From Octopus sinensis (taxonomy: Eukaryota), in contig NC_043003.1 of NCBI RefSeq assembly GCF_006345805.1, forward strand, positions 104,470,001-104,534,000: a DNA stretch of 64,000 bases. The letters are read 5' to 3'. This document shows positions 21,418 to 54,843 of this stretch, one piece after another. A program made the position numbers and the translations under genes. The notes under the pieces were generated by a model that did not search any database, was not told where the DNA came from, and worked only from the letters and a program-made list of their open reading frames with translations. Positions within the stretch are counted from its first letter, which is position 1. Each line of letters opens with the position of its first letter.

Positions 21418-23352
21418 GTATATATATATATATAATATATATATATATGATATTGATACGAACGAAAAAAAATGAAGACGAGCAAAATAACATTATGTCC
21501 ACGGGCTGTTTGTGTGAGGGCCCATGGTGGCATCGTAGGCTTGCGTGCGGCATAAAAATATATACACACACACACACACACACAAATATACAACATGCTG
21601 GAATGTGTATGTCCACCTTGCAGGACTCCACTAACAGTGACCAACCCAGAAGCATTTAGCACTTACTGCAAGAGGACTAGGTTTGCAGTTCTCAGTGAAC
21701 CACAGGGGAGTGATCACTAATAGAACAAAGAGTAGGCTACATGCTGTACTGTCCAGACAAGCTAAGAACAACTGAAGACAGTCTGGAGTTGGCTTTACAA
21801 TAAAGAACACCATTTTCTCCAGGCATGAGAGTTTCCACATTGGTCATTCTCAGTACATCTATTTGGGGGCTTGTCAATGCCATGTACTTGTTTGACACTT
21901 GTCTAGATGAAATTCATGTGTTGATATATAACAGACAGTGAATAATACCTCTCTAGGTATTGCTGAAAATTTGCCAAGTTGTAAAAAACTCAGTGAACGC
22001 AACTGAAACAGCATTTAACTTTCTCTACAAGATGGCTATTATGCAAGCATCATCAGCATCTATGCTTCCACCCTTCAAGCTAATCCAGCTATAAAGTGAA
22101 TTGAGTTCTCTCAACCAAAAGACAACAGCAAAAGACAGAATCTTCCTTATGGGTGACTTTAACTCAAAGGTCAGCAGAAACCACACCATATGGCCAGGCA
22201 GACTCAGTCAACATGGCATTGGCAATTGCAACAACAATGAGTAAATGTTGAATGGATTCCGTGCAGAACATGGTTTCGTCATTACCAATATCCCGTTTTA
22301 GTAGAGAGCACAGTTCAAGACAACTTGGAGACACTTTTGGTTGAAACACTGGCCCCTGCTTCACTACATATTGGTGCAATAGATGGATATAAAGATCATG
22401 CTCAATGTCAGAGTCATGCCTAGTGCACACTGGTACACAGACCACAGGTTGGTTTGTGCACAAGTCAGACTGTTCATCAAATCTGTCAGGAAGAGAGGTC
22501 ATTTAACAAAGAAATTGCAGGTCAACAGACTTCTACAACTGCAGGAAGGGTTTCAGGGAAGGTGCCTCTGTGTGTATAGTCATTTGTGTATCATACTAAA
22601 TATATGTACACCACTGAAAGGTAAGTAGGCTGCTAAGGTGTTTGACTAAGAGAAAATCTCTTTATAGACATGTTAAAAACACAGTATATACCAGAGTAAA
22701 ATGAATATCATTGCAGCTGTACCTCACAAGAATAACAGACACATTTAGCCCTACTTGGGGGCTTGTCAATGCCATGTACCTGTTTGACACTTGGCTAGAT
22801 GAAATTCACGTGTTGATATATAACAGACAGGATCGTTACCAATGTCACTTCACTGGCACCTGTGCCGGTGGCATGTATAAAAGGATTCGAGCGAGGTCAT
22901 TGCCAGTACCACCTGACTGGCCCCTGTGCCAGAGGCACGTAAAAAACACCCACTACACTCTCGGGGTGGTTGGCGCTAAGAAGGGCATCCAGCTGTAGAA
23001 ACTCTGCCAGACCAATATCGGAGCCTGGTGCAGCCATCTGGTTCACCAGCCCTCAGTCAAAATCGTCCAACCCATGCTAGCATGGAAAGCAGACGTTAAA
23101 CGATGAGTGAATAATACCTCTCTAGGTATTTCTGAAAGTTTGTTAAGTTGTAAAATACTCAGTGAACGCAACTGAAACAGCATTAAATTAAAATTTACAT
23201 ATAAACTTACCTGATGCCTTTGTTATATCATTACTTTGAAGAAGACTAGTACTGTTCTCACTTGTTAGAGAACTGAAAATTTGTTTTACATGCTCATTAG
23301 TCAATTCTATAGACTCCTCAGAGTCACTTCTTGAAGATAAACAATCATCCAT
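4946..23352 (-). CDS. NFKB1: Class I NF-kB (p105/p100/Relish-like) transcription factor, N-terminal part; join(23352..23211,16801..16662,13298..13147,11848..11712,5107..4946); 3' part not found in the window
   Basis: Five GT-AG exons splice in frame (intron phases 1,0,2,1,1) to give MDDCLSS...[86 protein letters not shown]...|[13 protein letters not shown]...|...[14 protein letters not shown]...[11 protein letters not shown], a Rel homology DNA-binding domain with the p50/p52-type RFRYxCEGPSHG motif. Confidence 0.93.
6575..8803 (-). mobile_element. Decayed piggyBac (PGBD4-like) transposon
   Basis: Frameshifted transposase pieces [55 protein letters not shown] (7610-8174); degenerate TTAA-CCCT-like ends; boundaries approximate. 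Confidence 0.75.
8820..10250. mobile_element. Highly degenerate probable non-LTR retrotransposon remnant
   Basis: Strong strand-composition skew and interrupted reading frames; no clean motif recognised. Confidence 0.25.
10659..11054. mobile_element. Merlin-like (or hAT-like) MITE inserted in a SINE
   Basis: TIRs GGATCTTTTCGGTTTGAATGGCAGTTTTT / AAAAACTGCCGTTCAAACCGAAAAGATTC; perfect 8-bp TSD AAGGCAGC (10651-10658, 11055-11062). Confidence 0.85.
11712..11848 (-). CDS. NFKB1: NF-kB exon: RHD plus insert region
   Basis: ctctgcag acceptor, gtaatt donor; [26 protein letters not shown] (cf. p50 FANLGILHVTKKKV). Confidence 0.93.
13147..13298 (-). CDS. NFKB1: NF-kB exon: RHD
   Basis: ctgttttag acceptor, gtaagc donor; [42 protein letters not shown] (HAHxLVGKxC motif). 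Absent from the ORF track. Confidence 0.95.
13543..13975 (-). mobile_element. SINE/LINE-tail repeat with (GAT)n tail; related copies near 4690-4880, 16860-17276, 22830-23105, 28170-28430, 34635-34855, 55155-55300, 61632-61790
   Basis: Recurrent CATCATCAT...TTTAACGTCCGCTTTCCATGCTAGCATGGGTTGG...CAGCTGGATGCCCTTCCTAAC motif. Confidence 0.8.
14330..14557 (-). mobile_element. tRNA-derived SINE (GTCGACTTTGCCTTTCATCCTTTCGG core); degenerate copies at ~5140-5345, 10260-10460, 11225-11675, 54045-54280, 58615-58825, 62700-62885
   Basis: B-box-like GAGTTCAAATTC on the minus strand and a shared central domain across many copies. Confidence 0.75.
14590..16380 (+). mobile_element. RTE-clade LINE remnant (APE endonuclease plus start of RT), many stops
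   Basis: [63 protein letters not shown] motifs. Confidence 0.88.
16662..16801 (-). CDS. NFKB1: NF-kB exon: RHD recognition loop
   Basis: ttttgcag acceptor, gtaagt donor; [38 protein letters not shown]. Confidence 0.95.
18360..21075. repeat. ~2.7-kb degenerate (CA)n/(CATA)n tract
   Basis: Directly visible; interrupted by two GC-rich islands (18790-19010, 20490-20690). Confidence 0.95.
21250..21284 (+). ncRNA. Minimal type I hammerhead ribozyme-like motif (degenerate)
   Basis: GTTT-CCGACGA-A-GAGC-TCC-GCTC-GAA-ACGT-C-ATAC; U4 is replaced by C; palindromic ACGT stem III. Confidence 0.6.
21590..22560 (+). mobile_element. RTE-like LINE endonuclease remnant
   Basis: [46 protein letters not shown] motifs. 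Confidence 0.7.
23211..23352 (-). CDS. NFKB1: NF-kB first coding exon (exon spans 23398-23211; ATG at 23352)
   Basis: Acceptor tttttttag ends at 23399; in-frame TGA four codons upstream of the ATG; encodes [47 protein letters not shown]; donor CAG|gtaagt in phase 1 matches the next exon (G|AA = Glu). Confidence 0.8.
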
Positions 23353-23484
23353 ATTTAAATTTCACACAACGACGATTATCAGCTGAAGTTGGGAAAATCT
23401 AAAAAAACAAAAATATATACATATATAAAACAATAACATATAAGCATTTGGAAAAACAACTACAAAGTAATGAAAATAAACTAG

Positions 23485-23885
23485 TGGCTGTGTGGTAAGT
23501 AGCTTGCTAACCAACCACATGGTTCCGGGTTCAGTCCCACTGCGTGGCATCTTGGGCAAGTGTCTTCTGCTATAGCCCCGGGCCGACCAATGCCTTGTGA
23601 GTGGATTTGGTAAATGGAAACTGAAAGAAGCCTGTCGTATATATGTATATATATATATATGTATGTGTGTGTGTTTGTGTGTCTGTGTTTGTCCCCCTAG
23701 CATTGCTTGGCAACCGATGCTGGTGTGTTTACGTCCCCGTCACTTAGCGGTTCGGCAAAAGAGACCGATAGAATAAGTACTGGGCTTACAAAGACTAAGT
23801 CCCGGGGTCGATTTGCTCGACTAAAGGCAGTGCTCCAGCATGGCCTCAGTCAAATGACTGAAACAAGTAAAAGAGTAAAAGAGTA
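23485..23885 (+). mobile_element. tRNA-derived SINE with internal TA/TG microsatellite and (AAAAGAGT)n tail
   Basis: GGCTGTGTGGTAAG A-box and GGTTCAGTCCC B-box-like head; closely similar to the copies at 31950 and 38053. Confidence 0.85.
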
Positions 23886-23899
23886 TTCCTTGCGAGTTG

Positions 23900-53964: not shown

Positions 53965-54555
53965 CATATATATATATAGGTGCATTGTAGGCTTTGTAGT
54001 TTAACTTTGAATTTAAGAACAGAAGCAATCTTTAGATTTATAACAATCCTTTCTTCTATAGGCACATGGCCTGGAATTTTTTAAGGGAGCGAGGCTAGTC
54101 AATTACATCAATCACAGTGCTTGACTGGTACATTATTGACCCAAAAGAATAAAAGGGGTACTTTATTGACTATGAAAGGCAAAGTCAGCCTCACTAAAAT
54201 TGGGACACATTGCAAAAACAGATGAAGCGCTGCTAAGCATTCTGTCCAGCATGCTAACAATTCTGCCATCTTGCTGCCTTATTTATGACGGATCATTTGG
54301 TGAATGAAGCAATGGTTTTGATTCTAATTTCCTGAGACTTATAATCAATGTTGTTTGGTTGAGCAGATCCTTTATATAAGGCATGCTAATAGAATATTCT
54401 AAAAATATCTTGTCTTTTTAATTTGACACTGTGGTTAAAAAGTTTCCTTGTTAAAGCATTTAACTGTTAATTCATTGATTCTAAGATCAAACCCATTCCA
54501 GACAAATTTCCTGTTTACTGCATTCATCTTATTGTTTGGGAGTTCATATCATTTC

Positions 54556-54564
54556 TTCCGGGAA
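54556..54564. promoter_or_regulatory. GAS/STAT consensus TTCCGGGAA
   Basis: Exact TTCCNGGAA match, 125 bp upstream of the first TRAF coding exon. Confidence 0.3.
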
Positions 54565-54688
54565 TTTTACTAAATTCCTATTAAAAGGAGATTTGCCTCT
54601 TTTATCAGTTTAACACCATGAATCTAAATCATATGATTAGTCTTAAAAGCTATCACAGTTTTAAGATTGTTATATTTTGCTATTGCAG

Positions 54689-54843
54689 ATGATGTCGCAC
54701 ACTTTTGATGAAGAGTTTGAATTAAGTTTAAAGGATGTAAATCAGAGATTCATTTGTCCCATCTGTTTAGCTTTGATGTCGAAACCAATGCAGACAAAAT
54801 GTGGCCATCGTTTCTGTAAGAAATGCATTTCTGGTGTCATTGC
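54689..54843 (+). CDS. TRAF6: TRAF6-like exon: RING N-terminal half
   Basis: tattgcag|ATGATG...ATTGC|gtaagg; CPICL...CGHRFCKKC. Confidence 0.92.

What the first reader, a model, noticed from the sequence alone, without database searches (positions are those of the whole stretch)
23352..54689. Head-to-head linkage of NF-kB and a TRAF6-like gene, an upstream activator in the same pathway
The two genes diverge with only transposon debris and no other recognisable gene between their start codons (~31 kb). TRAF6 relays TLR/IL-1R/TNFR-family signals through TAK1 and IKK to NF-kB (established). The human genes are on different chromosomes. With kB and STAT motifs in the shared interval, this may be a co-regulated immune gene pair created by lineage-specific rearrangement.
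Basis: partly seen in the sequence, partly recalled or inferred. Interest (0 to 1): 0.75.

Follow-up and report, generated by a model that had tools for sequence, protein, structure and literature searches.

The report
NF-kB beside a divergent TRAF paralogue
An octopus NF-kB gene sits head-to-head with a TRAF gene, their first exons about 6.5 kb apart, but the neighbour is not TRAF6 (which lies 2.8 Mb away): it belongs to a separate old TRAF branch that lacks TRAF6's receptor-binding residues, and the pairing is likely a chance rearrangement rather than a shared immune switch.

Summary
Both start codons are right (NF-kB p105-like 23352, minus; TRAF 54689, plus), and no gene was found between them. 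But 24.5 of the 31.3 kb are the genes' own first introns. Spliced contigs place untranslated first exons at 41233-41566 and 48024-48068, leaving a gap of about 6.5 kb that is 75% repeats. kB and STAT motifs are at chance level (3 vs 1.7; 9 vs 13.0). One kB site sits 22 bp upstream of a TATA box at NF-kB's own 5' end, which suggests autoregulation. The TRAF is not TRAF6: a true TRAF6 lies 2.8 Mb away on the same contig. The neighbour falls in a separate clade (100/100) shared with argonaut, snails, limpets, a pearl oyster and a starfish. It keeps 6 of 6 RING residues for Ubc13 binding and dimerisation but has lost the MATH groove residues (G[FY]GY in 0 of 14 clade members, 10 of 10 TRAF6). The two genes are near-consecutive in O. 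vulgaris accessions but on different contigs in Argonauta. Verdict: real but probably incidental linkage. The unnamed TRAF branch is the more interesting part.

The parts
41233..41566 (-). NF-kB p105-like exon 1 (untranslated). Donor at 41232. Contigs reach 41285 (X18, inferred from a loose end and depth), 41360 (X19) and 41566 (X5); contigs cannot fix a start site
   Evidence: records 17 and 25 join 41233/41237 to 23398/23399; donor AAAG|GTAAGA
41349..41358 (+). kB site GGGAAATCCC (GGGATTTCCC on the NF-kB strand), 22 bp upstream of the TATA box
   Evidence: 9 such sites in 264 kb; no other genomic copy of this stretch among the 40 candidates scored
41320..41327 (-). TATA box-like TATAAAAG, about 35-40 bp upstream of the 5' end of the deepest NF-kB contig (41285)
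23399..41232 (-). NF-kB intron 1 (17,834 bp): SINEs, MITEs, DDE transposase debris
23211..23398 (-). NF-kB exon 2 with the start codon at 23352
16650..16793 (-). NF-kB RHD exon ([14 protein letters not shown], class I type); ends approximate
   Evidence: p52 67.6 bits, p50 62 bits, c-Rel/p65 46 bits or less
13146..13298 (-). NF-kB coding exon (approximate)
11707..11853 (-). NF-kB coding exon (approximate)
4920..5108 (-). NF-kB coding exon (approximate); the gene runs on about 64 kb left of the window
41567..48023 (.). True intergenic gap, 6,457 bp, of which 4,859 (75%) match multi-copy repeats
43801..46839 (-). Degenerate multi-copy LINE-like element in the gap (long matches 71-86% identical to other copies). 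LINE class judged by eye from an endonuclease-like frame; no Pfam hit
41621..42412 (.). Short dispersed repeat (41621-41919) and an inverted-repeat MITE-like element (41946-42412)
47385..48023 (+). Non-repetitive stretch upstream of TRAF exon 1, likely its own proximal promoter (CRE-like TGACGT near 47968, label recalled)
48024..48068 (+). TRAF-like exon 1 (untranslated), with two alternative donors after 48054 and 48068
   Evidence: joints 48067>54688 (X17, X18) and 48054>54689 (X18), both GT..AG
48069..54688 (+). TRAF-like intron 1 (6,620 bp); holds a palindromic STAT motif TTCCGGGAA at 54556 and a kB-like site at 49665
54689..54843 (+). TRAF-like exon 2: start codon and first part of the RING
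56186..56243 (+). TRAF-like exon 3
56918..57022 (+). TRAF-like exon 4
58378..58539 (+). TRAF-like exon 5, zf-TRAF (ends approximate)
63635..63808 (+). TRAF-like exon 6, zf-TRAF; the coiled-coil and MATH exons lie right of the window (L011:587-760 and L011:2709-3248)

Best explanation
An NF-kB p105-type gene and a divergent TRAF paralogue (not TRAF6) lie head-to-head with first exons about 6.5 kb apart, likely brought together by a chance rearrangement in the octopus lineage and likely driven by separate promoters. NF-kB has a kB site plus TATA box at its own 5' end, so it is likely induced by NF-kB itself; as an ankyrin-bearing precursor this would give feedback. The TRAF belongs to an old branch present in molluscs and a starfish. 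It is predicted to be a dimeric, Ubc13-type RING ubiquitin ligase like TRAF6. Its MATH domain lacks the PxExx-binding residues, so it would not be recruited by IRAK/RANK/CD40-type motifs. It would instead be reached through other partners or through RING/coiled-coil pairing with another TRAF. The TLR-to-NF-kB relay is likely carried by the canonical TRAF6 2.8 Mb away. Shown: gene structures, gap size, repeat content, motif counts, paralogy, residue states. Inferred: promoter use, autoregulation, ligase activity, age and chance origin of the linkage.
For: Exon 1 positions from spliced contigs. Gap 6,457 bp, 75% repeats, with non-repetitive stretches next to each first exon. Motifs at shuffle level. 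Second locus G000:C7:101.70-101.73 Mb scores 104.8 bits against human TRAF6 MATH versus 36 bits for the window gene, and keeps YKLCMR, KGFGY and FPDNYVKRE. IQ-TREE on 45 MATH rows: window clade 14 rows 100/100, TRAF6 clade 13 rows 99/97. R392 equivalent in 1 of 14 vs 10 of 10; G[FY]GY in 0 of 14 vs 10 of 10 (residue roles from PMC12015293 passages). D57, C70, I72, L74, R88 and F118 equivalents are kept, K124 is not (roles from 10.1101/2023.06.19.545655 passages). RING homodimer model: score 0.46, best of 3 controls 0.02, runs agree in 100% of contacts, pLDDT 81 or more, interface includes R41 and F73. That mark was reached by 21 of 30 solved pairs and 0 of 23 single chains in microbes (animals 7 of 16), and a like TRAF6 dimer is solved, so the pass shows likeness only. 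Argonauta orthologues lie on different contigs. The other neighbours found are a PROPPIN and a peptidase M16 gene. [quoted passage not shown]
Against: Adjacency of two NF-kB-pathway-like genes is unlikely for one genome: 0.3-1.6% for an RHD gene next to any of 20-80 pathway genes (assumed counts). With repeats removed, only 1.6-1.9 kb separate the first exons, so an older near-bidirectional promoter is possible. Both 5' ends share one CpG-undepleted block, 36-52 kb, the strongest in 264 kb. The Argonauta GenBank assembly is contig-level (389 contigs, PMC12682272), so a break between the genes, or loss in Argonauta, is not excluded. No squid, Nautilus, bivalve or gastropod gene order could be read. 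The N-terminal half's best PDB and fold matches are all TRAF6, so the protein may still activate NF-kB. The 45 tree rows were picked from a first FastTree of 116 rows, and the clade has long branches.
Confidence: 0.66

Rival explanations
1. The pair is a functional, co-regulated unit: the kB/TATA promoter region or an element in the gap induces both NF-kB p105 and the non-canonical TRAF, making a feedback module in which the groove-less TRAF tunes TRAF6 signalling.
For: First exons only 6.5 kb apart, 1.6-1.9 kb without repeats. One shared CpG-undepleted block. A perfect kB site at 41349 and a kB-like site at 49665 in TRAF intron 1. Both transcripts are present as spliced contigs in runs X17 and X18.
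Against: Motif counts at chance level. A 3 kb LINE-like element and other repeats fill the gap. No kB consensus in the TRAF proximal stretch. Different contigs in Argonauta. Octopus species are close kin, so shared order needs no selection. Class-wide lack of co-expression in cephalopod microsyntenies.
Confidence: 0.17
2. The linkage is an old molluscan or bilaterian microsynteny (NF-kB with this TRAF branch) that was broken or split by assembly in Argonauta.
For: The TRAF clade is old (molluscs and Acanthaster). The Argonauta record is contig-level. Canonical TRAF6 is also on C7.
Against: About 389 contigs against tens of thousands of genes make a break exactly between two neighbours improbable (roughly 1-2%, my estimate). 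The Argonauta accessions are about 10,000 apart. Coleoid genomes broke most old microsynteny (PMC9023564 passage).
Confidence: 0.1
3. One reading: the neighbour is TRAF6 itself, the upstream activator of NF-kB.
For: NCBI names it 'TRAF6-like'. Best PDB hits of its RING and MATH are TRAF6. RING residues are kept.
Against: A far better TRAF6 exists at C7:101.7 Mb. The two MATH domains are 26 of 147 identical. They fall in separate supported clades. The groove residues are missing.
Confidence: 0.04
4. The adjacency is an assembly artefact.
For: No DNA reads were laid across the gap.
Against: No N within 264 kb. An independent O. vulgaris annotation gives near-consecutive accessions on one 128.6 Mb contig.
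Confidence: 0.03

Closest known systems
TRAF6 (human; PDB 3hcs, 1lb4-1lb6, 5vo0)
   Same: RING, zinc fingers, coiled coil, MATH order. Best PDB and Foldseek match. D57/C70/I72/L74/R88/F118 equivalents kept. Predicted RING dimer on the same residues.
   Different: MATH only 22-23% identical. It lacks the helix after strand 1 and the R392/K469/Y473 groove residues; K124 is E and F122 is A. It sits in a separate clade, and the genome has its own canonical TRAF6.
Auto-annotated 'TRAF6-like' proteins of Argonauta (GAB1608529), Littorina (XP_070184495), Biomphalaria (XP_013096307), Patella (XP_050392979), Pinctada (KAK3100059), Acanthaster (XP_022093531)
   Same: One clade with the window gene (100/100). 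Shared short MATH and a KHQ-L-C-x-FPV-C zinc-finger signature in most rows.
   Different: Only 29-38% identical outside octopods. Their gene neighbours could not be read.
Class I NF-kB precursors (NFKB1 p105, NFKB2 p100, Relish type)
   Same: RHD with the GPSHGG motif plus ankyrin repeats. A kB site in its own promoter, as recalled for mammalian NFKB1/NFKB2. p105/p100 act as IkB-like inhibitors (PMC8286839 passages).
   Different: 738-799 aa, with no death-domain Pfam listed, against 1052-1080 aa in chiton, Lingula and sea cucumber.
Bidirectional (head-to-head) promoter pairs
   Same: Divergent orientation with no gene found between.
   Different: First exons are 6.5-6.7 kb apart, above the usual 1 kb definition (recalled), with repeats between and separate non-repetitive proximal stretches.
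Cephalopod-specific microsyntenies (Schmidbaur et al. 2022, PMC9023564)
   Same: New gene neighbours after genome reorganisation, with short intergenic distance.
   Different: That set needs three or more genes conserved across coleoids. This pair is seen only in Octopus so far, and no TRAF6/NFKB1 name occurs in its 7 supplementary files (the tables may carry bare gene ids).

Membership tests
TRAF family | C-terminal TRAF/MATH domain after a coiled coil | tested here: met
   PF21355 56 bits, over the cut-off; model has helix 228-285 and a beta-sandwich at 291-427; Foldseek TRAF domains
TRAF family | N-terminal RING and TRAF-type zinc fingers | tested here: met
TRAF6 orthologue | Groups with TRAF6 and is the genome's best TRAF6 match | tested here: not met
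   separate clades 100/100 and 99/97; 36 bits vs 104.8 bits for the C7:101.7 Mb gene
TRAF6 orthologue | MATH groove for PxExx motifs (R392, K469, F471, Y473) | tested here: not met
   Q322 at R392 and SSPFQVC in place of KGFGY; clade 1 of 14 R and 0 of 14 G[FY]GY (numbering consistent with one offset on 1lb4; roles)
TRAF6 orthologue | RING residues for Ubc13 binding and dimerisation (D57, C70, I72, L74, R88, F118) | tested here: met
   6 of 6 (D7, C23, I25, L27, R41, F73); K124 is E79; dimer model passes by likeness
TRAF6 orthologue | Makes K63 chains and activates TAK1/IKK downstream of TLR/IL-1R | not testable with these tools
   needs an assay
Class I NF-kB (p105/p100) | RHD closer to p50/p52 than to Rel | tested here: met
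   67.6 and 62 bits vs 46 bits or less; a second RHD gene lies on C11
Class I NF-kB (p105/p100) | C-terminal ankyrin repeats | tested here: met
   precomputed Pfam of P0007-P0009; exons mapped
Class I NF-kB (p105/p100) | C-terminal death domain (vertebrate-type; not required for Relish) | tested here: inconclusive
   not listed for the octopod proteins in precomputed Pfam; no direct scan run
Bidirectional promoter pair | Divergent transcription with no gene between | tested here: met
   (small genes not fully excluded)
Bidirectional promoter pair | 5' ends within about 1 kb (threshold recalled) | tested here: not met
   6,458-6,738 bp; contigs give minimum exon extents only
Bidirectional promoter pair | Shared element and correlated expression | not testable with these tools
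   only contig depths were available
Conserved microsynteny | Adjacency kept in distant taxa | tested here: inconclusive

The most novel reading that the evidence does not exclude
Octopus has coupled NF-kB p105 to a member of an undescribed, bilaterian-old TRAF branch (active RING, no receptor groove) through a once near-bidirectional kB/TATA promoter. NF-kB activation would then co-induce its own inhibitor-precursor and a TRAF6 modulator: a feedback module absent from vertebrates.
Probability: 0.12. Interest if true: 0.65.

Novelty: new variant of a known kind. Interest (0 to 1): 0.32.

Why it matters
As found, it corrects an annotation trap. Mollusc and starfish proteins auto-named 'TRAF6-like' include a separate old branch without the receptor groove, so immune-transcriptome papers that count them as TRAF6 may misassign pathway activity. 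The branch offers a testable question: what does a TRAF6-type RING do without a PxExx groove? The kB/TATA site gives a ready reporter test of NF-kB autoregulation in a cephalopod. The linkage itself would matter only if co-induction is shown.

Tried and rejected
Hidden gene in the interval: 92 of 92 ORFs gave no Pfam hit over a cut-off. Motif enrichment: six patterns in four regions, none with P under 0.10. Extra or trans-spliced 5' exon for the TRAF: the 31 loose letters before 48024 in run X17 are not within 100 kb and match C4:16.31 Mb with 1 mismatch. I read this as a chimeric contig end; an AG precedes 48025, so a further upstream exon is not excluded. The loose 28 letters at 41285 in X18 look like a SINE and were treated the same way. 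Co-expression from contig depth: rejected, because the tool states that depth cannot rank genes and the runs were found with the TRAF gene. No listed holder is on record as RNA; 5 of 24 listed runs were laid (X4, X5, X17, X18, X19), none of the three large runs (X15, X16, X20). The TRAF exon 1 joint comes from one study (P7); the NF-kB joint from two (P3, P7). ESM Atlas gave only generic TRAF clusters. Literature: no paper held all terms; searches listed nothing by title or abstract start on this pair or clade. PMC4199593 passages list TRAF2/3/5/6 in O. vulgaris haemocytes, with no linkage mentioned. Subscription journals and bioRxiv supplements were not searchable, so a prior description of the clade is possible. 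Passages of PMC8286839 did not show NFKB1 promoter kB sites; that point is recalled. Trees: 8 multi-MATH proteins and 7 near-duplicates were dropped before the 116-row FastTree, and 45 rows were chosen for IQ-TREE. No outgroup and no one-clade test were run, so 'sister to TRAF6' rests only on a 94/90 branch. Earlier-findings look-ups returned nothing.
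Full report
Setting. The window is G000:C7:104,470,001-104,534,000. Database proteins that match it are named NF-kB p105 and TRAF6-like of Octopus by their sources. Mapping P0020 and P0001 onto the window plus 100 kb each side gave 18 and 7 exon-level matches, the ATGs at 23352 (-) and 54689 (+), and no N. The RHD exon is class I: 67.6 bits to p52, 62 to p50, 46 or less to c-Rel/p65. A second RHD gene lies on C11.

The interval. Both ATG exons follow splice acceptors, so the start codons do not mark the gene ends. I laid contigs of 5 of the 24 runs listed. 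None is on record as RNA, but their contigs join across GT-AG introns. In one search, X17 and X18 (one study) join 48067 to 54688 and X18 also joins 48054 to 54689, which gives a TRAF first exon from about 48024 with two donors. In one search, X19 record 17 joins 41233-41360 to 23211-23398 and X5 record 25 (another study) joins 41237-41566 to the same exon; the X18 contig appears to cover 41233-41285. The first introns are 17,834 and 6,620 bp, 24,454 of the 31,337 bp. The true gap is 6,457 bp from the longest contig ends. Contigs cannot show a start, so these are minimum exon extents.

What fills the gap. A degenerate multi-copy element at 43801-46839, short repeats at 41621-41919 and 43062-43803, an inverted-repeat element at 41946-42412 and a SINE at 46918-47195 cover 4,859 bp, or 75%. 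Stretches without long genomic matches lie beside each first exon; these searches scored at most 40 candidates, so uniqueness is not proven. None of 92 ORFs of 70 aa or more in the ATG-to-ATG interval reaches a Pfam cut-off. CpG observed/expected rises to 0.7-1.0 over 36-52 kb against 0.1-0.3 in the flanking introns. This fits an unmethylated stretch between two methylated gene bodies (established for invertebrates, recalled) and does not by itself show a shared promoter.

Motifs. With recalled consensus patterns and 200 dinucleotide shuffles, kB sites number 3 against 1.71 (P 0.21) and TTCN3GAA 9 against 12.96 (P 0.90); no pattern in any of four regions falls under P 0.10. The perfect STAT palindrome at 54556 lies in TRAF intron 1, 6.5 kb from exon 1. 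One site stands out by position: GGGAAATCCC at 41349-41358, 22 bp upstream of TATAAAAG (41327-41320) on the NF-kB strand and about 65 bp upstream of the deepest contig's 5' end. With 9 such sites in 264 kb, a 100-bp window holds one about 0.3% of the time, though I noticed it after the fact. The simplest reading is NF-kB autoregulation (recalled for mammalian NFKB1/NFKB2). p105/p100 act as IkB-like inhibitors (PMC8286839, passages), so this would be feedback.

The TRAF is not TRAF6. The genome holds seven MATH exons of TRAF type. By best PDB match, C18 is TRAF3-like, C1 TRAF2-like and C26 TRAF4-like. The exon at C7:101.698 Mb is TRAF6-like at 104.8 bits, with YKLCMR and KGFGY intact; its RING exons match TRAF6 and keep FPDNYVKRE. 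The window gene's MATH scores 36 bits, and the alignment stops before the last groove strand. The two octopus MATH domains share 26 of 147 residues. From 150 representatives, a 116-row FastTree and a 45-row IQ-TREE chosen from it place the window gene in a 14-row clade (100/100) apart from the TRAF6 clade (99/97). Named members are from Argonauta, Littorina, Biomphalaria, Patella, Pinctada and the starfish Acanthaster, so the branch likely predates the protostome-deuterostome split. Branches are long and the tree is unrooted. TRAF6 binds PxExx motifs through R392, K469, F471 and Y473 (PMC12015293, passages). The R392 column is R in 1 of 14 clade rows against 10 of 10 TRAF6 rows, and G[FY]GY occurs in 0 of 14 against 10 of 10. 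The RING keeps equivalents of D57, C70, I72, L74, R88 and F118, which are needed for Ubc13 binding, ligase activity and dimerisation (10.1101/2023.06.19.545655, passages); K124 is E. AlphaFold gives a full TRAF architecture (mean pLDDT 82.4, pTM 0.36), with TRAF6 the best fold match for the N-terminal half. A two-copy model of residues 6-140 scored 0.46 against a best control of 0.02, with 100% agreement between runs, pLDDT 81 or more, and R41 and F73 in the interface. The mark was reached by 21 of 30 solved pairs and 0 of 23 single chains in microbes and 7 of 16 animal pairs; since the TRAF6 dimer is solved, this shows likeness, not binding.

Age of the linkage. In O. vulgaris, NF-kB is CAI9726283 and the TRAF CAI9726285/6 on one contig; CAI9726284 was not seen. 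In O. bimaculoides both lie on a contig of the same length. In Argonauta hians the orthologues (TRAF 68% identical) are GAB1598423 on a 34.5 Mb contig and GAB1608529 on a 48.4 Mb contig. The GenBank record for that species has 389 contigs (PMC12682272, passages; that these proteins come from it is my inference), so a break between neighbours is possible but improbable. No other taxon could be read. The outer neighbours found are a PROPPIN and a peptidase M16 gene (148 of 237 candidate ORFs scanned). Random gene order puts an RHD gene beside one of 20-80 pathway genes in 0.3-1.6% of genomes (assumed counts): rare for one test, expected in a scan of many pathways and genomes. [quoted passage not shown]

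Mechanism and verdict. Most likely these are two separately promoted genes made neighbours by rearrangement: an autoregulated NF-kB precursor, and a TRAF6-related ligase that cannot read TRAF6's receptor motifs and would act through other partners or by pairing with another TRAF (0.66). A co-induced feedback module remains open (0.17), because only 1.6-1.9 kb of non-repeat DNA separates the first exons. The gene arrangement is an ordinary kind. The groove-less TRAF branch was not found described, which cover open-licence papers only. Novelty: new variant of a known kind; interest 0.32.

Noticed in passing
G000:C7:101,698,062-101,728,055 (L021-L024): Canonical TRAF6 orthologue on the same contig, 2.7-2.8 Mb from NF-kB and the paralogue, so three related pathway genes lie within 3 Mb.
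   Followed up: partly
P0007-P0010 (NF-kB gene, window and L001-L007): Octopod p105-like proteins are 738-799 aa with no death-domain or PF24521 Pfam listed, against 1052-1080 aa in chiton, Lingula and sea cucumber: possible loss of the C-terminal part.
   Followed up: no
L028:2390-2770 and L029:2172-2507 (C7755, C9072): Two further TRAF MATH regions, each with one TAA inside the match, forming a separate clade with unnamed proteins; may be an intron or a broken copy.
   Followed up: partly
P0035, P0043, P0146, P0170: Unnamed TRAF-like proteins with a RING/zinc-finger head and 6 to 13 tandem MATH domains.
   Followed up: no
window 17355-18326 (+): 323-aa open frame with a weak GIY-YIG hit (Penelope-like, label recalled) in an NF-kB intron, followed by about 2.4 kb of CA-rich simple repeat (18500-20900).
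   Followed up: no
window 2991-3542, 7610-8228, 33281-33463, 50713-51480: Transposon debris: Pif1 helicase (Helitron-like), piggyBac-like, DDE_1 and mariner-like frames (piggyBac and mariner judged by eye).
   Followed up: no
window 37473-37583 and 38459-38571: Two kB-like half motifs (37521, 38504) lie in the paired arms of one inverted-repeat element, so some 'kB motifs' here are repeat-borne.
   Followed up: partly
window 42413-43061: CpG-rich stretch in the gap with few genomic matches, a 177-aa frame without Pfam hit and faint contig cover (depth 2-3); may be old transposon sequence or a regulatory element.
   Followed up: partly
window 48024 / L032:1501-1530: The TRAF contig of run X17 begins with 31 letters matching contig C4; read as a chimeric end.
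   Followed up: yes
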